Of a DNA stretch of 4,447 nt, positions 1 through 4,447 are shown piece after piece; the first letter of the stretch is position 1; the number at the start of each line of letters is the position of its first letter. The position numbers and the translations under genes are program-made. The DNA is taken from the IMG/VR virus record IMGVR_UViG_2778261170_000007, one strand, 5' to 3'. The notes below the pieces were generated by a model. It saw only the letters and a program-made list of their open reading frames with translations. It was not told the origin of the DNA and did not search any database. The stretch comes from a virus. Its lineage: Duplodnaviria > Heunggongvirae > Uroviricota > Caudoviricetes.

Positions 1-471
1 CCCGTTCCGTGGCCCTTAGAAACACCACCAACGGGCTGGCTAAAATGTAACGGAGCAGCATTTTCTTCTGAAAAGTATCCCAAACTGGCAAAAGCCTACC
101 CCACCAATAAATTACCGGATTTACGGGGAGAATTTATTCGCGGTTGGGATGATGGGCGCGGGGTGGATGCTGGCCGCGCTTTGCTTAATTGGCAGCCACA
201 CACAATTTTGGACCATGCACACTATATGGAATTATGGACAGGGGACGGACTCGCCGCAGGAAGTGCACGGGAAGGCGTAAATCCAGGAATACTAGCTACA
301 TACGGTGACGGGGGAATAGTTAAAACGGACGAACCCGGTCATAAGGTGCCTTCCTCACTACGAGCTATTAGCTCTCGTAGTGTTAAACGTTATGGTGAAA
401 TTAGTGGAAATGTAGGTACAGAAACTCGCCCTCGCAACGTTGCATTTAATTACATCGTAAGGGCGGCATAA
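1..471 (+). CDS. Tail-fiber tip / receptor-binding cassette A (tail-collar domain family), 5'-partial at window edge
   Basis: Frame 1 is open from nt 1 to TAA at 469-471. Translation PVPWPLETPPTGWLKCNGAAFSSEKYPKLAKAYPTNKLPDLRGEFIRGWDDGRGVDAGR...ETRPRNVAFNYIVRAA carries the tail-collar signature (P-x-GW-x-C-NG, LPDLRG-F-RG-D-GRG). HAH motif at 214-222. Nucleotide-identical in reverse complement to 3977-4447. Confidence 0.8.
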   Translation, partial: PVPWPLETPPTGWLKCNGAAFSSEKYPKLAKAYPTNKLPDLRGEFIRGWDDGRGVDAGRALLNWQPHTILDHAHYMELWTGDGLAAGSAREGVNPGILATYGDGGIVKTDEPGHKVPSSLRAISSRSVKRYGEISGNVGTETRPRNVAFNYIVRAA

Positions 472-483
472 AAACGTTGGTTT
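1..483. repeat. Left arm of a perfect >=483-bp inverted repeat (pairs with 3965-4447); truncated by the window edge
   Basis: Position x on the + strand equals the reverse complement of position 4448-x. Identity ends at 484 (g versus a), immediately after the conserved junction spacer. Confidence 0.85.
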
Positions 484-495
484 GGGGGAAGGCTC
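456..495 (+). repeat. Conserved 40-bp inter-cassette junction (candidate recombination/crossover site), A-B
   Basis: CGTAAGGGCGGCATAAAAACGTTGGTTTGGGGGAAGGCTC: last codons of one cassette, TAA, a 10-nt non-coding spacer AAACGTTGGT, and the first codons of the next. The identical 40-mer recurs at 3027-3066 and 3466-3505 on the minus strand. Confidence 0.5.
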
Positions 496-943
496 TGCAC
501 TGCCCGTTGGTGTGCCCGTTCCGTGGCCCTTAGAAACACCACCAACGGGCTGGCTAAAATGTAACGGAGCAGCATTTTCTTCTGAAAAGTACCCAAAACT
601 GGCAAAGGCTTACCCTACTAATAAATTGCCGGATTTACGCGGTGAATTTATTCGTGGCTGGGATGACGGACGTGGTGTGGATGCCGGGCGACAATTATTA
701 TCTTCACAGGGGGATGCAATAAGAAATATTGAGGGGTTCGCAGATGGCGGGATTGGCATGTCTTTTGATGCAATCAGAGGGGCTTTTTATGATGCAGGAA
801 CACGATCAGCGAGAATGCCGAATAACACAACTACTATAGACAAAACCGATGACCTTGGATTCGACGCCTCTCGTGTCGTGCCAACAGCTAATGAAAACCG
901 TCCTCGTAATATTGCCTTTAATTACATCGTAAGGGCGGCATAA
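482..943 (+). CDS. Tail-fiber tip / receptor-binding cassette B (tail-collar domain family)
   Basis: ORF with a TTG at the conserved module start (482) and TAA at 941-943. N-terminal block of subtype A (PLETPP, YPKLAKAYPTNK), a unique variable core with no HxH, and the conserved C-terminus ENRPRNIAFNYIVRAA. No ATG or convincing Shine-Dalgarno, so the true start is uncertain. Confidence 0.75.
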   Translation: MGEGSALPVGVPVPWPLETPPTGWLKCNGAAFSSEKYPKLAKAYPTNKLPDLRGEFIRGWDDGRGVDAGRQLLSSQGDAIRNIEGFADGGIGMSFDAIRGAFYDAGTRSARMPNNTTTIDKTDDLGFDASRVVPTANENRPRNIAFNYIVRAA

Positions 944-967
944 AAACGTTGGTTTAGGGGAAGGCTC
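928..967 (+). repeat. Conserved 40-bp inter-cassette junction, B-C (variant with TTA in place of TTG)
   Basis: Differs from the 456-495 junction by one substitution (TTG to TTA); identical to the minus-strand junction at 3953-3992. Confidence 0.5.
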
Positions 968-983
968 GGCGCTGCCCGTTGGC

Positions 984-1451
984 GTGCCTGTTCCATGGCC
1001 CTCAGCCACACCTCCAACGGGGTGGCTGAAATGCAATGGTGCAGCATTTTCTTCTGAAAAGTACCCAAATCTGGCAAAGGTTTACCCAACGTTAAAATTA
1101 CCTGATTTACGCGGTGAGTTTATCCGTGGTTGGGATGATGGGCGAGGGATTGACTCTGGTCGCTCTATTTTAAGCGAGCAAGGATATGCAACGGAGGATC
1201 ATGCTCACGGATTACCGTCAAAATCAACCGTAGCAACTGACCGCTCAATTAATTTCTACTTTGACGAGGCATGGGCTACTAGTGGTAATACGGGAGTTAT
1301 CAGATGGGGGAACACAAGCGATGCAGGATTGCCAGCCCCTAATTATGGAACTTTTAAAACATATAAACAGTCCGTAGCTAATTTAGGTACTGCTGGCTTA
1401 GAAACCCGCCCTCGTAATGTTGCATTTAATTATATTGTGAGGGCGGATTAA
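984..1451 (+). CDS. Tail-fiber tip / receptor-binding cassette C (tail-collar domain family); conserved module actually begins at 954
   Basis: The conserved module start codon is TTA at 954-956 (TTG in other cassettes); the first possible start is GTG at 984. The frame is open from 933. Subtype-B N-terminal block (PSATPP, YPNLAKVYPTLK), HAH motif at 1200-1208, C-terminus ETRPRNVAFNYIVRAD, TAA at 1449-1451. Confidence 0.7.
   Translation: MPVPWPSATPPTGWLKCNGAAFSSEKYPNLAKVYPTLKLPDLRGEFIRGWDDGRGIDSGRSILSEQGYATEDHAHGLPSKSTVATDRSINFYFDEAWATSGNTGVIRWGNTSDAGLPAPNYGTFKTYKQSVANLGTAGLETRPRNVAFNYIVRAD
987..1147. repeat. Left arm of a 161-bp perfect inverted repeat (pairs with 2333-2493) in the conserved 5' block of cassette C
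   Basis: 10-mer by 10-mer comparison of 987-1147 with the reverse complement of 2333-2493 shows identity, bounded by mismatches at 986 and 1148. Confidence 0.85.
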
Positions 1452-1456
1452 TTATA

Positions 1457-2068
1457 TCAACTGGCTGTAGAAAGTTGTTTTTCAGGCCAGTTGAGATCTG
1501 GTGCCGTGGTTAAATCCATCGCGTTCAGCTCGTCTATATAATCTAGCACGGAGTTAAGCTGCGTGGTTTCTGCCTGCGTCAACTTCCGTCCAGCCCGTAA
1601 TTTCAACTGAATCAGACTAATGGAATCCATCGCAGTATCAATCAATGACTGACGTTTTGTTTCTGCTGCCTCTACAGCTGCACTATGTTGAGCCTCAGTA
1701 TCAACCACCCATTTCTCTCCATCCCATTTGTCGTATGGTGTTAGCGGGGCGATAGTGGTTGTATTTTCCGGATAGTCACCCAACACCGTGATTTCTTCGG
1801 GATTCCCAGTGTCAATGCTATAGACAGTTTCGCCACGATGATCTGGCACATACTCCCATGAACTTAAATCCTCTGAACGGAGAATCGCATAACCTGCTTT
1901 ATGTGAGCCTGGAGCATCCAAACAAGAATTTGCCGGAATACCAACGCCAACAGCAAGATATTCAGTTGATGCAGAAATATATTCCCGATTACCACCATCA
2001 TAGTTATAAACGATAATGTTTCCTGCCTGTATGGCTATAAGTTCGCTATTTAATATCGCATTATCCAT
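1457..2068 (-). CDS. tfa: Phage tail fiber assembly protein (Tfa; Mu U / P2 G / lambda Tfa-like chaperone)
   Basis: 203-aa ORF with a canonical ATG at 2066-2068 and TGA at 1457-1459. The C-terminal region ...KWDGEKWVVDTEAQHSAAVEAAETKRQSLIDTAMDSISLIQLKLRAGRKLTQAETTQLNSVLDYIDELNAMDLTTAPDLNWPE matches, from memory, the conserved C-terminal domain of enterobacterial tail fiber assembly proteins (DTEA..., STAPDIEWP-like end). Its start overlaps the stop of the upstream cassette (TAATGG), indicating translational coupling. Confidence 0.85.
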   Translation of the reverse strand: MDNAILNSELIAIQAGNIIVYNYDGGNREYISASTEYLAVGVGIPANSCLDAPGSHKAGYAILRSEDLSSWEYVPDHRGETVYSIDTGNPEEITVLGDYPENTTTIAPLTPYDKWDGEKWVVDTEAQHSAAVEAAETKRQSLIDTAMDSISLIQLKLRAGRKLTQAETTQLNSVLDYIDELNAMDLTTAPDLNWPEKQLSTAS

Positions 2069-2526
2069 TATGCTGCTCTCACAATATAATTGAAGGCAAT
2101 GTTACGTGGGCGGGTTTCATTCCCCCCAGATAACTCCGTTCTGTATTGACTGGTAAATTTACCATTAATCGCTCCTTCTTGGACGGCGTTATCTGTCGAC
2201 AACAGACTATCCCCCCCTCTGTCATTTGGCACCAATACCGTGTTATCCCACGCGTCCCATGACCGAATATTATGATAATGACTTCCTGTTAACCACCCCT
2301 GTATGCTTAAGATGACCCTTCCCGCATCCACACCTCGCCCATCATCCCAACCACGGATAAACTCACCGCGTAAATCAGGTAATTTTAACGTTGGGTAAAC
2401 CTTTGCCAGATTTGGGTACTTTTCAGAAGAAAATGCTGCACCATTGCATTTCAGCCACCCCGTTGGAGGTGTGGCTGAGGGCCATGGAACAGGTACACCA
2501 ACGGGCAGCGCCGAGCCTTCTCCCAA
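2068..2526 (-). CDS. Tail-fiber tip / receptor-binding cassette D (tail-collar domain family), coupled to tfa
   Basis: TTG at 2524-2526, TAA at 2068-2070 overlapping the tfa ATG. Subtype-B N-terminal block, HYH motif at 2272-2280, C-terminus ETRPRNIAFNYIVRAA. Confidence 0.8.
   Translation of the reverse strand: MGEGSALPVGVPVPWPSATPPTGWLKCNGAAFSSEKYPNLAKVYPTLKLPDLRGEFIRGWDDGRGVDAGRVILSIQGWLTGSHYHNIRSWDAWDNTVLVPNDRGGDSLLSTDNAVQEGAINGKFTSQYRTELSGGNETRPRNIAFNYIVRAA
2333..2493. repeat. Right arm of the 161-bp perfect inverted repeat (pairs with 987-1147) in the conserved 5' block of cassette D
   Basis: See the left arm. Together the two arms bracket 1148-2332, which holds the cassette C variable core, tfa and the cassette D variable core. 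Confidence 0.85.
2341..2439. repeat. 99-bp perfect direct repeat, copy 1 (cassette D 5' block); copy 2 at 2865-2963
   Basis: 2341-2439 is identical to 2865-2963 (atcatcccaaccacggataaactcaccgcg...aaaatgctgc); flanking sequence is similar but has substitutions. Confidence 0.8.
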
Positions 2527-2552
2527 ACCAATGTTTTTATGCTGCCCTTACG
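2513..2552 (-). repeat. Conserved 40-bp inter-cassette junction, E-D (most divergent copy, 3 substitutions)
   Basis: Minus-strand sequence CGTAAGGGCAGCATAAAAACATTGGTTTGGGAGAAGGCTC. Confidence 0.45.
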
Positions 2553-3040
2553 ATGTAATTAAAAGCAACGTTGCGGGGGCGCATTGATATCCATGCCCCG
2601 GTAAAATTATCCTCTGCCGTCCTTTGAGTACCCGTTATGGAGTTATCTGCTGATGCTGGAACATAATCGCTATTATCTCCTGCTTTAGGATTAGCAGGGT
2701 TTCCAACAGTTATAACAGAATCAGCAGTAGCATAAGCGATACCTACTTTGACATTAGTAGTCAGATCGACACCGTAATAATCCTGCAAAGCTGTACGAAT
2801 AAATGTTGCAGTCTGACCACTTAGCAATGAACGCCCTGTATCAATCCCTCTCGAATCATCCCAACCACGGATAAACTCACCGCGTAAATCAGGTAATTTT
2901 AACGTTGGGTAAACCTTTGCCAGATTTGGGTACTTTTCAGAAGAAAATGCTGCTCCGTTACATTTCAGCCACCCCGTTGGCGGTGTGGCTGAGGGCCATG
3001 GAACAGGCACGCCAACGGGCAGCGCCGAGCCTTCCCCCAA
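2537..3040 (-). CDS. Tail-fiber tip / receptor-binding cassette E (tail-collar domain family)
   Basis: TTG at 3038-3040, TAA at 2537-2539. Subtype-B N-terminal block, the longest variable core (about 81 aa, no HxH), C-terminus MRPRNVAFNYIVRAA. Confidence 0.75.
   Translation of the reverse strand: MGEGSALPVGVPVPWPSATPPTGWLKCNGAAFSSEKYPNLAKVYPTLKLPDLRGEFIRGWDDSRGIDTGRSLLSGQTATFIRTALQDYYGVDLTTNVKVGIAYATADSVITVGNPANPKAGDNSDYVPASADNSITGTQRTAEDNFTGAWISMRPRNVAFNYIVRAA
2865..2963. repeat. 99-bp perfect direct repeat, copy 2 (cassette E 5' block)
   Basis: Identical to 2341-2439. Confidence 0.8.
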
Positions 3041-3066
3041 ACCAACGTTTTTATGCCGCCCTTACG
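3027..3066 (-). repeat. Conserved 40-bp inter-cassette junction, F-E
   Basis: Minus-strand sequence identical to the 456-495 junction. Confidence 0.5.
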
Positions 3067-3479
3067 ATATAATTAAACGCAATGTTACGAGGACGAATGG
3101 TTACATAATTAACCCCATCACCTCGTGAAGGCCCTGCAAATGAAAAACGGGAAAATCCTGGTTGGTTAGAAACAATTTGGTCATAGTTATTGATTGAATG
3201 ACCAGACCCAATGTCGAAATTACCTCCGTAATGAGAAAAACTTGTACCATCCTGCCCTGAAAGCAGGGTACGTCCCGCATCAATCCCGCGCCCATCATCC
3301 CAGCCACGGATAAATTCACCGCGTAAATCCGGTAATTTATTGGTGGGGTAGGCTTTTGCCAGTTTGGGATACATTTCAGAAGAAAATGCTGCACCATTGC
3401 ATTTTAGCCAGCCAGTTGGTGGTGTTTCTAAGGGCCACGGAACGGGCACACCAACAGGCAATGCAGAGCCTTCCCCCAA
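3051..3479 (-). CDS. Tail-fiber tip / receptor-binding cassette F (tail-collar domain family)
   Basis: TTG at 3477-3479, TAA at 3051-3053. Subtype-A N-terminal block (PLETPP, EMYPKLAKAYPTNK), the shortest variable core (about 56 aa), C-terminus IRPRNIAFNYIVRAA. Confidence 0.75.
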   Translation of the reverse strand: MGEGSALPVGVPVPWPLETPPTGWLKCNGAAFSSEMYPKLAKAYPTNKLPDLRGEFIRGWDDGRGIDAGRTLLSGQDGTSFSHYGGNFDIGSGHSINNYDQIVSNQPGFSRFSFAGPSRGDGVNYVTIRPRNIAFNYIVRAA

Positions 3480-3505
3480 ACCAACGTTTTTATGCCGCCC
3501 TTACG
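3466..3505 (-). repeat. Conserved 40-bp inter-cassette junction, G-F
   Basis: Minus-strand sequence identical to the 456-495 junction. Confidence 0.5.
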
Positions 3506-3948
3506 ATGTAATTAAATGCGATATTTCGTGGACGGGTTTCACTCCCGCCAGTATTACCAATACTCCCTCGAGAATGAAGTGTCGGTGATGGAATCAAATT
3601 CCCTCCTGTATTTGAGGCATCAAGCCCCCGTCCTTGTGTGTATGTTTTTTTGAAAATTGTCGCCAGCTCCCATTCATCTTTTGTGTCGTAACCATCATTG
3701 GCTACAACAATATGTCGGTGCTTTTCCAGCATTCCTGTCTGAATGCTCAATAAAGCACGTCCCGCATCCACCCCGCGCCCATCATCCCAGCCGCGAATAA
3801 ATTCTCCCCGTAAATCCGGTAATTTATTGGTGGGATAAGCCTTTGCCAGTTTTGGGTACTTTTCAGAAGAAAATGCTGCTCCGTTGCATTTTAGCCAGCC
3901 TGTTGGCGGAGTGGCTGAGGGCCACGGAACAGGTACGCCAACAGGCAA
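3490..3948 (-). CDS. Tail-fiber tip / receptor-binding cassette G (tail-collar domain family); conserved module extends to 3966
   Basis: The conserved module start is TTA at 3964-3966; the first possible start is TTG at 3946-3948. TAA at 3490-3492. Chimeric N-terminal block (PSATPP of subtype B followed by YPKLAKAYPTNK of subtype A), HRH motif at 3712-3720, C-terminus ETRPRNIAFNYIVRAA. Confidence 0.7.
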   Translation of the reverse strand: MPVGVPVPWPSATPPTGWLKCNGAAFSSEKYPKLAKAYPTNKLPDLRGEFIRGWDDGRGVDAGRALLSIQTGMLEKHRHIVVANDGYDTKDEWELATIFKKTYTQGRGLDASNTGGNLIPSPTLHSRGSIGNTGGSETRPRNIAFNYIVRAA

Positions 3949-3952
3949 TGCT

Positions 3953-3992
3953 GAGCCTTCCCCTAAACCAACGTTTTTATGCCGCCCTTACG
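3953..3992 (-). repeat. Conserved 40-bp inter-cassette junction, A'-G (TTA variant)
   Basis: Minus-strand sequence identical to the 928-967 junction. Confidence 0.5.
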
Positions 3993-4447
3993 ATGTAATT
4001 AAATGCAACGTTGCGAGGGCGAGTTTCTGTACCTACATTTCCACTAATTTCACCATAACGTTTAACACTACGAGAGCTAATAGCTCGTAGTGAGGAAGGC
4101 ACCTTATGACCGGGTTCGTCCGTTTTAACTATTCCCCCGTCACCGTATGTAGCTAGTATTCCTGGATTTACGCCTTCCCGTGCACTTCCTGCGGCGAGTC
4201 CGTCCCCTGTCCATAATTCCATATAGTGTGCATGGTCCAAAATTGTGTGTGGCTGCCAATTAAGCAAAGCGCGGCCAGCATCCACCCCGCGCCCATCATC
4301 CCAACCGCGAATAAATTCTCCCCGTAAATCCGGTAATTTATTGGTGGGGTAGGCTTTTGCCAGTTTGGGATACTTTTCAGAAGAAAATGCTGCTCCGTTA
4401 CATTTTAGCCAGCCCGTTGGTGGTGTTTCTAAGGGCCACGGAACGGG
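3965..4447. repeat. Right arm of the perfect >=483-bp inverted repeat (pairs with 1-483)
   Basis: Reverse complement matches 1-483 on the blocks checked; the arm runs to the window edge and so probably continues beyond it. Confidence 0.85.
3977..4447 (-). CDS. Tail-fiber tip / receptor-binding cassette A' (inverted identical copy of cassette A), 5'-partial at window edge
   Basis: The minus-strand frame is open to the window end, with TAA at 3977-3979. The reverse complement of 3965-4447 equals 1-483; this was checked on 1-180, 177-246, 241-300, 308-427 and the 3' junction. Confidence 0.8.
   Translation of the reverse strand, partial: PVPWPLETPPTGWLKCNGAAFSSEKYPKLAKAYPTNKLPDLRGEFIRGWDDGRGVDAGRALLNWQPHTILDHAHYMELWTGDGLAAGSAREGVNPGILATYGDGGIVKTDEPGHKVPSSLRAISSRSVKRYGEISGNVGTETRPRNVAFNYIVRAA

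What the first reader, a model, noticed from the sequence alone, without database searches (positions are those of the whole stretch)
987..2493. 161-bp perfect inverted repeat brackets tfa and two variable cores: a Mu G-segment-like invertible unit
987-1147 (+) and 2333-2493 (-) are identical in reverse complement, while the rest of cassettes C and D is only about 85-90% similar or unrelated. Inversion of 1148-2332 across these arms would exchange the variable cores between the two conserved N-terminal blocks. In one orientation the D core plus tfa follows the + strand N-block; in the other it follows the - strand N-block. Perfect identity confined to the arms is the footprint expected of repeated inversion or conversion at this site.
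Basis: partly seen in the sequence, partly recalled or inferred. Interest (0 to 1): 0.8.

Follow-up and report, generated by a model that had tools for sequence, protein, structure and literature searches.

The report
Phage tail-fibre tip shuffling array
The perfect 161-bp inverted repeat is real, but it is an ordinary part of a long-known system: the Min-type multiple DNA inversion region of P1-like phage-plasmids, where an invertase acts at short 26-bp sites just outside the repeat to swap alternative tail-fibre tips.

Summary
Observation confirmed. 987-1147 is exactly the reverse complement of 2333-2493 (161 nt, sharp ends).

Interpretation partly right. The bracketed piece (cassette C, tfa, cassette D) is an invertible unit of the Hin/Gin/Cin/Min family. 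It occurs in both orientations relative to the constant tail-fibre gene in public plasmids whose modules are 100% identical to the window.

Three corrections:
- **Crossover sites.** Exchange occurs at 26-bp sites at 937-962 and 2518-2543, at the central dinucleotide. That is 36 nt outside the arms, not in them.
- **Array, not a two-state switch.** The unit is the one two-ended "turnaround" module of an array. The window holds eight tip cassettes and six sites, which equal or nearly equal the published p15B Min (mix) sites.
- **What the arms are.** They encode the conserved tail-collar domain that opens every cassette. Their perfect identity is specific to one plasmid lineage (0 to about 40 mismatches elsewhere). 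It fits gene conversion among cassettes, not a footprint of site-specific inversion.

The invertase lies outside the window. In relatives a 190-aa serine recombinase, about 75% identical to Gin, flanks the array.

This is the p15B Min system (Sandmeier, Iida, Arber 1990-92), already noted in P1/P7-like plasmids. Low interest.

Side note: the window ends are a perfect 483-bp inverted duplicate of cassette A, possibly a merge of two isomers.

The parts
987..1147 (+). Left arm of the 161-bp perfect inverted repeat. It encodes most of the tail-collar domain (PVPWPSATPPTGWLKCNGAAFSSEKYPNLAKVYPTLKLPDLRGEFIRGWDDGRG) of cassette C.
   Evidence: exact reverse complement of 2333-2493; Pfam Collar PF07484, residues 7-54 of the cassette, E 7e-15.
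2333..2493 (-). Right arm of the 161-bp perfect inverted repeat; the same collar-domain block, in cassette D.
937..962 (-). 26-bp Min-type crossover site upstream of cassette C (TTCCCCTAAACC AA CGTTTTTATGCC). The central dinucleotide is at 949-950.
   Evidence: Identical to published p15B mixMr''N'/O''P'/P''Q' (PMC3241671 Table 3). Junction alignment.
2518..2543 (+). 26-bp crossover site upstream of cassette D (TTCTCCCAAACC AA TGTTTTTATGCT). The central dinucleotide is at 2530-2531.
   Evidence: In one search, four different neighbours join D exactly here.
951..2529 (.). The two-ended 'turnaround' module C(+)-tfa(-)-D(-), bounded by two inverted half-sites. It is always inherited as one block.
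   Evidence: 1579/1579 identical in L002, L005, L006; 1560/1560 in L003 and L004. It is a single block in every locus mapped and occurs in both orientations relative to the constant gene.
963..1451 (+). Cassette C: an alternative tail-fibre C-terminal tip (162 aa in frame from the site).
1457..2068 (-). tfa, the tail-fibre assembly chaperone gene. Its ATG overlaps the stop codon of D by one base, and its end lies 5 bp from the end of C (convergent).
   Evidence: (Caudo_TAP PF02413, E 3e-30).
2068..2517 (-). Cassette D: an alternative tip, and the only one followed by tfa.
   Evidence: Collar; similarity to phage short tail fibre / T4 gp37 and gp12 chains.
1..471 (+). Cassette A, truncated at its 5' end by the window edge.
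   Evidence: (100% identical to A of L003, L004, L008).
465..490 (-). 26-bp crossover site upstream of cassette B. The stop codon of A lies in its distal half.
491..943 (+). Cassette B.
2537..3031 (-). Cassette E. It carries a third copy of the C/D-type collar block at 2847-3007 (7 mismatches to the arm over its 161 nt).
3032..3057 (+). 26-bp crossover site upstream of cassette E.
3051..3470 (-). Cassette F.
3471..3496 (+). 26-bp crossover site upstream of cassette F.
3490..3957 (-). Cassette G.
3958..3983 (+). 26-bp crossover site upstream of cassette G.
3977..4447 (-). A second, inverted copy of cassette A. 3965-4447 is a perfect reverse complement of 1-483.

Best explanation
The window is the cassette array of a Min-type multiple DNA inversion system. 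This system diversifies the tail fibre of a P1-like (IncY) phage-plasmid of E. coli.

**Anatomy.** Each cassette encodes about 140-165 aa: a conserved tail-collar block, a variable receptor-binding core, and a conserved C-terminal strand. Each cassette is preceded by a 26-bp site. The cassette-proximal half of the site travels with the cassette. The distal half is the 3' end of whatever lies upstream: another cassette's stop-codon region, the constant tail-fibre gene, or the invertase-proximal end.

**Mechanism.** A serine invertase encoded next to the array, outside this window, pairs two inversely oriented sites. It cuts at the central AA/TT dinucleotide and inverts the DNA between them. This places a different cassette in frame behind the constant 5' part of the tail-fibre gene. 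Cutting chemistry and any Fis/enhancer dependence are inferred from the Gin/Hin/Cin family.

**The finding itself.** The C-tfa-D segment is the single two-ended module of the array, the turnaround between plus-strand and minus-strand cassettes. Its two sites are 937-962 and 2518-2543. The 161-bp perfect inverted repeat is the collar-domain coding block of C and D, lying 24 nt inside those sites. Its perfect identity reflects a recent homologous conversion or common descent in this plasmid lineage. It is not the recombination site.

**Shown here:** the sites, the module boundaries, the permuted isomers, and the protein families.
For: - **Sites.** The window holds six 26-bp sites against 0 expected by chance. 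Two are identical to published p15B mix sites. The end sites of related loci (CGTTTTAGTCTT, GGTAATCAAGAA) match published mixMl''L' and mixQ''R' exactly (PMC3241671 Table 3).
- **Isomers.** Window modules cut at the site centres are 100.0% identical end to end to modules in NZ_CP134391.1 (L003) and NZ_OY757102.1 (L004), in different order and orientation.
- **Crossover point.** Junction alignments show divergence starting exactly at the base 5' of the central TT, for S-const, min-end, E and F neighbours of D and for two neighbours of C.
- **Shuffling in nature.** Seven different cassette types are fused to the constant gene among the loci mapped.
- **Array context.** Related loci read R-like gene, tail-fibre gene (Phage_fiber_2 repeats plus Collar), cassettes, then a 190-aa recombinase.
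- **Recombinase.** It has Resolvase plus HTH_7 domains and matches Gin structures 3UJ3/4M6F at E 4e-92.
- **Literature.** pMCR_SCKP-LL83 (MF510496.1, 97.5% identical to the window's C-tfa-D unit) is reported as 99% identical to the p15B min region (PMC5786510). In EC958 prophages the 26-bp crossover sites sit at the outer edge of larger inverted repeats, and PacBio reads show both orientations (PMC4134206).
Against: - The window contains no invertase gene and no constant tail-fibre gene, so linkage is inferred from relatives with identical modules.
- No reads from the source sample are available, so ongoing inversion in that sample is not shown.
- The window could not be aligned directly to the p15B sequence X62121, which is not in the searchable collections.
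- The original Sandmeier papers are not held. Details such as the 240 isomers rest on my memory of their abstracts.
- The doubled cassette A does not fit a simple one-copy-per-cassette array.
Confidence: 0.93

Rival explanations
1. The 161-bp arms are themselves the recombination substrate. Host RecA-dependent homologous recombination between them inverts 1148-2332, and repeated exchange keeps them identical.
For: 161 bp of perfect homology is long enough for RecA-mediated exchange (general knowledge). The collar blocks are mosaic among cassettes across plasmids, so homologous exchange or conversion in these blocks does happen over evolutionary time.
Against: Every rearrangement junction examined maps to the central dinucleotide of the 26-bp sites, 36 nt outside the arms. 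No locus carries the reciprocal product, that is, a C core with D's full leader and half-site alongside the converse. The leader SNPs at 956, 959, 983 and 986 stay with their cassettes in all plasmids whose modules are 100% identical. C and D arms are not identical in many plasmids.
Confidence: 0.04
2. The repeat, or the whole arrangement, is an assembly artefact such as a collapse or a chimera of repeats.
For: The window ends are a perfect inverted duplicate of cassette A. The plasmids with 100%-identical modules (L003, L004) carry A only once. The window equals the overlap-merge of two legal isomers, S|A B M E F G|min and S|B M E F G A|min (my inference). Several deposited plasmids show duplicated or noisy, frameshifted cassettes. 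PMC4134206 warns of exactly this kind of artefact.
Against: For the 161-bp arms, the finding itself, the C-tfa-D module is identical base for base in at least three independent complete assemblies. The artefact reading can therefore apply only to the terminal duplication of A, not to the finding.
Confidence: 0.02
3. It is an R64-type shufflon, driven by a tyrosine recombinase (Rci) acting on 19-bp sfx repeats.
For: It shares the general architecture: several invertible segments that swap C-terminal ends of one gene.
Against: The sites are 26-bp Din-family sites identical to published mix sites. The adjacent recombinase in relatives is a serine invertase close to Gin. The target is a phage tail fibre, not PilV.
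Confidence: 0.01

Closest known systems
Min multiple DNA inversion system of plasmid p15B (E. coli 15T-; Sandmeier, Iida, Meyer, Hiestand-Nauer, Arber 1990; Sandmeier et al. 1991, 1992)
   Same: - The 26-bp crossover sites are identical or nearly so, with a central AA.
- The end sites are the same at the constant-gene and invertase-proximal borders.
- A constant 5' tail-fibre gene is fused to alternative 3' cassettes.
- The host is a P1-like IncY phage-plasmid backbone.
- An adjacent Din-family serine invertase is present in relatives.
- A relative of the window is reported as 99% identical to the p15B min region.
- The isomer count 2 x (n-1)! that I derive from the observed array rule gives 240 for six sites, the figure I recall for p15B.
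   Different: This lineage carries 7 different cassettes (8 copies in the window, with A doubled) instead of six. Related plasmids carry 2 to 9, drawn from a pool of at least 12 cassette types.
Mu G segment / Gin
   Same: The mechanism family is the same: a serine invertase, a 26-bp site, and inversion that swaps the tail-fibre C-terminus plus a tfa gene. The recombinase of relatives is about 75% identical to Gin. The C-tfa-D module alone works as a two-state switch in some genomes (L015, L016, L019).
   Different: Mu has two sites and two states, and each orientation has its own tfa (U and U'). Its central dinucleotide is GA, and its inverted repeats are 34 bp containing the sites. Here there are six or more sites, one tfa, central AA, and a 161-bp repeat lying inside the sites rather than containing them.
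P1 C segment / Cin
   Same: The host backbone family is the same. Long inverted repeats lie just inside the crossover sites and encode a shared part of the variable tail-fibre region (own knowledge; about 0.6 kb in P1).
   Different: P1 has a single invertible segment with two tfa genes. According to Sandmeier 1992 (from memory), the Min region is a substitution related to e14 Pin rather than to Cin.
e14 Pin / P2-like prophage tail-fibre switches (e.g. EC958 Phi2, PMC4134206)
   Same: The crossover half-site TTCTCCCAAACC of cassette D equals the pixL/pixR half-site. The sites sit at the outer edge of larger imperfect inverted repeats (227 bp at 96% identity in Phi2). The identical Tfa protein is found in P2-like chromosomal prophages (L016, L019).
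   Different: Those are two-state switches with a single invertible segment.

Membership tests
Din-family (Hin/Gin/Cin/Pin/Min) invertase switch, Min type | 26-bp crossover sites made of two imperfectly symmetric 12-bp halves around a central dinucleotide, matching the family consensus | tested here: met
   The window holds six sites against 0 expected by chance. Two are identical to published p15B mix sites, and the others combine published half-sites or differ by 1-3 nt.
Din-family (Hin/Gin/Cin/Pin/Min) invertase switch, Min type | Strand exchange at the central dinucleotide; each half-site stays with its own flank | tested here: met
   Modules cut at site centres are 100% identical end to end in differently arranged plasmids. 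Junction alignments diverge exactly at the base 5' of the central TT. This is comparative evidence, not biochemical.
Din-family (Hin/Gin/Cin/Pin/Min) invertase switch, Min type | An adjacent serine invertase of about 190 aa (Resolvase catalytic domain plus a C-terminal HTH) | tested here: inconclusive
   No such gene lies in the window, which has no flanks. It is present next to the array in nearly every related locus whose flank was retrieved. It has Resolvase plus HTH_7 and matches Gin structures at E 4e-92.
Din-family (Hin/Gin/Cin/Pin/Min) invertase switch, Min type | More than two sites giving overlapping invertible segments; alternative 3' cassettes all in one frame with a constant 5' gene part | tested here: met
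   There are six internal sites and eight cassettes. All cassettes read GSALPVGVPVPWP... in the same frame from the site. Annotated tail-fibre CDSs run through the site into A, D, H and others in relatives.
Din-family (Hin/Gin/Cin/Pin/Min) invertase switch, Min type | Alternative arrangements of the same DNA actually exist | tested here: met
   The window, L003 and L004 share 100%-identical modules in three different orders. The unit is seen in both orientations relative to the constant gene. Heterogeneity within a single culture was not tested.
Din-family (Hin/Gin/Cin/Pin/Min) invertase switch, Min type | A Fis-dependent recombinational enhancer (sis) in cis | not tested
   In this family it is expected inside the 5' part of the invertase gene (own knowledge), which lies outside the window.
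p15B Min region specifically | Sequence identity to GenBank X62121 | not testable with these tools
   X62121 is not in the searchable collections. Indirect evidence: MF510496.1 is 97.5% identical to the window unit and is reported as 99% identical to p15B min. The site matches are exact.
Mu G-segment (two-state switch) | Exactly two crossover sites, lying within short terminal inverted repeats | tested here: not met
   The window holds six sites. The sites lie 24 nt outside the 161-bp repeat, not within it.
Mu G-segment (two-state switch) | Two alternative Sv-U sets, each with its own tail-fibre assembly gene | tested here: not met
   There is only one tfa (1457-2068), co-oriented with D. C has none.
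R64-type shufflon | Tyrosine recombinase Rci and 19-bp sfx repeats | tested here: not met
   The recombinase of relatives is a serine invertase, and the sites are 26-bp Din sites.

The most novel reading that the evidence does not exclude
Beside invertase-driven shuffling at the 26-bp sites, a second and slower layer of diversification operates. Homologous recombination or gene conversion between the collar-domain blocks, of which the 161-bp perfect C/D arms are the freshest example, re-assorts sites, collar blocks and receptor-binding cores among cassettes. It may also duplicate cassettes (the doubled A). On this reading the array evolves new chimeric tips rather than only permuting fixed ones. 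The mosaicism is shown. That it is frequent, adaptive, or responsible for the doubled A is not shown.
Probability: 0.3. Interest if true: 0.3.

Novelty: already known. Interest (0 to 1): 0.12.

Why it matters
For biology this is a rediscovery. Min-type shuffling of tail-fibre tips has been described since 1990, and its presence in P1/P7-like resistance plasmids has already been noted.

Its practical value is for annotation and assembly:
- The cassettes are routinely auto-annotated as separate 'phage tail proteins'.
- The region breaks short-read assemblies. The identical Tfa protein sits on contigs under 5 kb in about three quarters of the collection blocks that hold it.
- Several 'complete' plasmid records carry duplicated or garbled cassettes, probably from mixed isomer populations.

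Knowing the site positions allows correct annotation. It also lets the host-range repertoire of these common phage-plasmids be counted: at least 12 tip types in the loci examined, and 2 to 9 per plasmid.

Tried and rejected
- **Original papers.** I tried to read the p15B papers (PMC53420, PMC329034, PMC206102, PMID 1534556) and the P1 genome paper (PMC523184). None is held. I used secondary sources that reproduce the site table and consensus.
- **Exact source record.** No record in phages, plasmids or E. coli genomes covers 80% or more of the window in one place. That is expected for a shuffled region. Module-wise comparison solved this.
- **Source contig.** A look-up through the Tfa protein returned only long contigs and did not identify the source.
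- **Ungapped C-versus-D comparison.** It failed for L003 and L004 because of a 19-bp tandem duplication, which was resolved by alignment.
- **Rejected explanations.**
  - R64-type shufflon: the sites and the recombinase are of the wrong kind.
  - Arm-mediated inversion as the main mechanism: the junctions map elsewhere.
  - Assembly artefact as an explanation of the arms: independent assemblies agree.
- **One malformed call.** A literature query had a term that was too short.
Full report
**1. The observation**

Window 987-1147 is the exact reverse complement of 2333-2493 (161 nt). Mismatches begin at once on both sides. The repeat brackets three things:
- the variable core of a plus-strand ORF, cassette C (963-1451);
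- a minus-strand tail-fibre assembly gene, tfa (1457-2068);
- the variable core of a minus-strand ORF, cassette D (2068-2517).

It is not an assembly artefact: the whole C-tfa-D block (951-2529) is identical base for base in three independently assembled complete plasmids (L002, L005, L006), and over the 1560 nt aligned in two more (L003, L004).

**2. What surrounds it**

The window is a tandem array of eight related cassettes:

| Cassette | Coordinates | Strand |
|---|---|---|
| A | 1-471 | + |
| B | 491-943 | + |
| C | 963-1451 | + |
| tfa | 1457-2068 | - |
| D | 2068-2517 | - |
| E | 2537-3031 | - |
| F | 3051-3470 | - |
| G | 3490-3957 | - |
| A (second copy) | 3977-4447 | - |

- Each cassette encodes a conserved N-terminal block that is a Phage Tail Collar domain (PF07484, residues 7-54).
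- This is followed by a variable core and a conserved C-terminal strand (...RPRNIAFNYIVRAA).
- tfa is a Caudo_TAP chaperone gene.
- D resembles phage short tail fibre and T4 gp37/gp12 receptor-binding regions.
- The 161-bp arms are simply the collar-domain coding blocks of C and D. Cassette E carries a third copy with 7 mismatches over the arm.

**3. The real recombination sites**

A 26-bp element precedes every cassette, at 465-490, 937-962, 2518-2543, 3032-3057, 3471-3496 and 3958-3983. That is six matches to a degenerate pattern against zero expected by chance.

Written with the cassette-proximal half first, they read TTCCCC(C/T)AAACC AA CGTTTTTATGCC.
- This is the Din-family (Hin/Gin/Cin/Pin/Min) crossover site.
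- Two window sites are identical to the published p15B sites mixMr''N', mixO''P' and mixP''Q'.
- In related loci the two array ends carry exactly the published mixMl''L' (…AA CGTTTTAGTCTT) and mixQ''R' (…AA GGTAATCAAGAA) (PMC3241671 Table 3).
- The proximal half-site of D (TTCTCCCAAACC) equals the e14 pix half-site.
- The stop codon of each single cassette lies inside the distal half of the next site.

**4. Where the window comes from**

- The best matches are non-mobilizable plasmids of about 95 kb, typed IncY or IncHI1B by MOB-suite, in E. coli, Klebsiella and Salmonella. These are P1/P7-like phage-plasmids.
- In them the array sits between a tail-fibre gene (ten Phage_fiber_2 repeats plus a Collar domain) and a 190-aa 'recombinase family protein'.
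- That protein has Resolvase plus HTH_7 domains. It aligns over 185 residues with the Gin invertase structures 3UJ3/4M6F at E 4e-92, about 75% identity.
- One of these plasmids, pMCR_SCKP-LL83 (MF510496.1), is 97.5% identical to the window's C-tfa-D unit. Its authors described it as carrying a region 99% identical to the p15B min multiple inversion region (PMC5786510).

**5. Evidence that it shuffles, and where**

I cut the window at the centres of the six sites and compared each module with the related loci. A, B, C-tfa-D, E, F and G are each 100.0% identical end to end to modules of NZ_CP134391.1 (L003) and NZ_OY757102.1 (L004). For C-tfa-D, 1560 of its 1579 nt align, because of the 19-bp duplication described in section 10. 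The order and orientation differ:

| Source | Arrangement |
|---|---|
| Window | A+ B+ [C+ t- D-] E- F- G- A- |
| L004 | S\|[C+ t- D-] F- A- G- E- B-\|min |
| L003 | S\|[D+ t+ C-] A- B- G- F- H- E-\|min |

- The finding's unit therefore exists in both orientations relative to the constant gene S. D-tfa is expressed in L003, L005, L007 and L008; C is fused to S in L004.
- Across the loci mapped, seven different cassette types are found fused to S.
- Junction alignments give single-nucleotide resolution. D is joined to four different left neighbours: S, the min-proximal end, the 3' end of E, and the 3' end of F. All sequences are invariant from the central TT onward and diverge at the base just before it.
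- The same holds for C.
- Crossover is therefore at the central dinucleotide, window 949-950 and 2530-2531. That is 36 nt outside the 161-bp arms.

**6. Array logic**

- In every locus mapped, plus-strand cassettes come first, then the C-tfa-D module, then minus-strand cassettes.
- C-tfa-D is the only module bounded by two sites, and it is never split.
- This rule gives 2 x (n-1)! arrangements for n sites. That is 240 for six sites, which matches the number I recall from the p15B papers (own knowledge; the papers are not held). It is 1440 for the seven-cassette set of this lineage.
- In L015 (P1-like) and in L016 and L019 (P2-like chromosomal prophages) the module stands alone between the tail-fibre gene and the invertase. 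That is a plain two-state switch like Mu G or e14 P.

**7. Why the arms are perfect**

- Conservative site-specific recombination at a 26-bp site does not homogenise 161 bp lying 24 nt away.
- Across plasmids, the number of C-versus-D differences within the arm varies by locus:

| Loci | C-versus-D differences in the arm |
|---|---|
| window, L002, L005, L006 | 0 |
| L007 | 4 |
| L008 | 6 |
| L001, L009 | 20-28 |

- A position-by-position table shows that the collar blocks are mosaic. The same variable core carries different collar haplotypes in different plasmids, and patch boundaries fall inside the block. For example, D has an F-type block in L009 and L011-L013, and A has a C-type block in L009 and L012.
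- That is the signature of homologous exchange or gene conversion among paralogous cassettes, with purifying selection on the collar fold as background.
- The perfect arms are the state of one lineage, not a mark of the inversion site.
- No locus shows the reciprocal product expected from a crossover within the arms.

**8. Mechanism**

The following is inferred from the Gin/Hin/Cin family, beyond what is shown above. The invertase binds as dimers to two inversely oriented sites. These synapse, in this family with a Fis-bound enhancer inside the invertase gene. Both duplexes are cut with 2-nt overhangs at the central AA/TT, subunits rotate by 180 degrees, and the ends are religated. An inversion that involves the site next to the constant gene changes the expressed tip. 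Other inversions only reorder the silent cassettes. In the window's arrangement, inverting C-tfa-D alone would give B+ [D+ t+ C-] E-.

**9. Comparison and novelty**

- This is the Min system of p15B, and more generally the invertase-driven tail-fibre switching reviewed by Sandmeier in 1994 (cited in PMC4134206).
- It works like Mu G, but it fails two defining features of a G segment: two sites only, and a tfa gene for each orientation.
- It is not an R64 shufflon.
- The system, its sites and its presence in P1/P7-like plasmids are all in the literature. I rate it already known and of low interest.

**10. Side observations**

- **Window ends.** Positions 1-483 and 3965-4447 are a perfect inverted duplicate of cassette A.
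  - The plasmids with 100%-identical modules carry A once.
  - The window equals the overlap-merge of two legal isomers, S|A B M E F G|min and S|B M E F G A|min. It may therefore be an assembler's merge of a mixed population.
  - About 9 of 84 plasmids also show A twice, and L012 has A+…A- with identical proteins. A real duplication is therefore not excluded.
- **Garbled cassettes.** L010, L011 and L013 contain frameshifted or garbled cassette copies, as expected from a consensus over mixed isomers.
- **Frameshift in C.** A 19-bp tandem duplication frameshifts C in L003 and L004.
- **Single tfa.** Only D is followed by tfa. Whether the other tips need it is unknown.

Noticed in passing
window 1-483 and 3965-4447: The window ends are a perfect 483-nt inverted repeat, so the whole of cassette A is present twice in opposite orientation. 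Plasmids whose modules are 100% identical (L003, L004) have A once. The window equals the merge of two legal isomers, so this may be an assembly merge of a mixed population, or it may be a real duplication. About 9 of 84 plasmids show A twice, and L012 has A+…A-.
   Followed up: partly
window 1452-2070: Only one of the seven different tips (D) is followed by a tail-fibre assembly gene. The tfa ATG overlaps D's stop codon by one base, and tfa ends 5 bp from the stop of the convergent cassette C. When the module faces the other way, tfa is antisense to the tail-fibre operon. How the other tips are assembled is unclear.
   Followed up: no
window 963-1147 and the equivalent block of every cassette; loci L001-L013: The collar-domain blocks are mosaic. 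The same variable core carries different collar haplotypes in different plasmids, with patch boundaries inside the block. This indicates gene conversion or homologous exchange among cassettes.
   Followed up: partly
L003 7034-7052 and L004 7018-7036 (approximate; between the site and the collar block of cassette C): A 19-bp tandem duplication (CGCTGCCCGTTGGCGTGCC) frameshifts cassette C in two plasmids from Japan and France. They are different isomers of the same array. In L004 this breaks the S-C fusion gene.
   Followed up: yes
L010 8608-9520; L011 1405, 3922, 5427; L013 8027: Several 'complete' plasmid records contain frameshifted, error-laden or duplicated cassette copies. This is what a long-read consensus over a mixture of isomers would produce, and it hints at active shuffling in those cultures.
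   Followed up: partly
L016 and L019 (chromosomal, P2-like baseplate/tail genes upstream), L015: The identical Tfa protein and a D/C cassette pair occur as a minimal two-state switch (tail fibre, D, tfa, inverted C, invertase) in P2-like chromosomal prophages. The module is therefore shared between P2-like and P1-like elements.
   Followed up: partly
whole window: The exact Tfa protein is indexed in 4053 blocks of the public collection. In 3082 of them the longest contig carrying it is under 5 kb. This region routinely fragments short-read assemblies, and the 4447-base window may itself be such a contig.
   Followed up: no
window 356-382 (and its mirror 4066-4092): A near-palindrome, CACTACGAG…CTCGTAGTG, lies inside the variable core of cassette A (family D9). 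It is probably coincidental.
   Followed up: no
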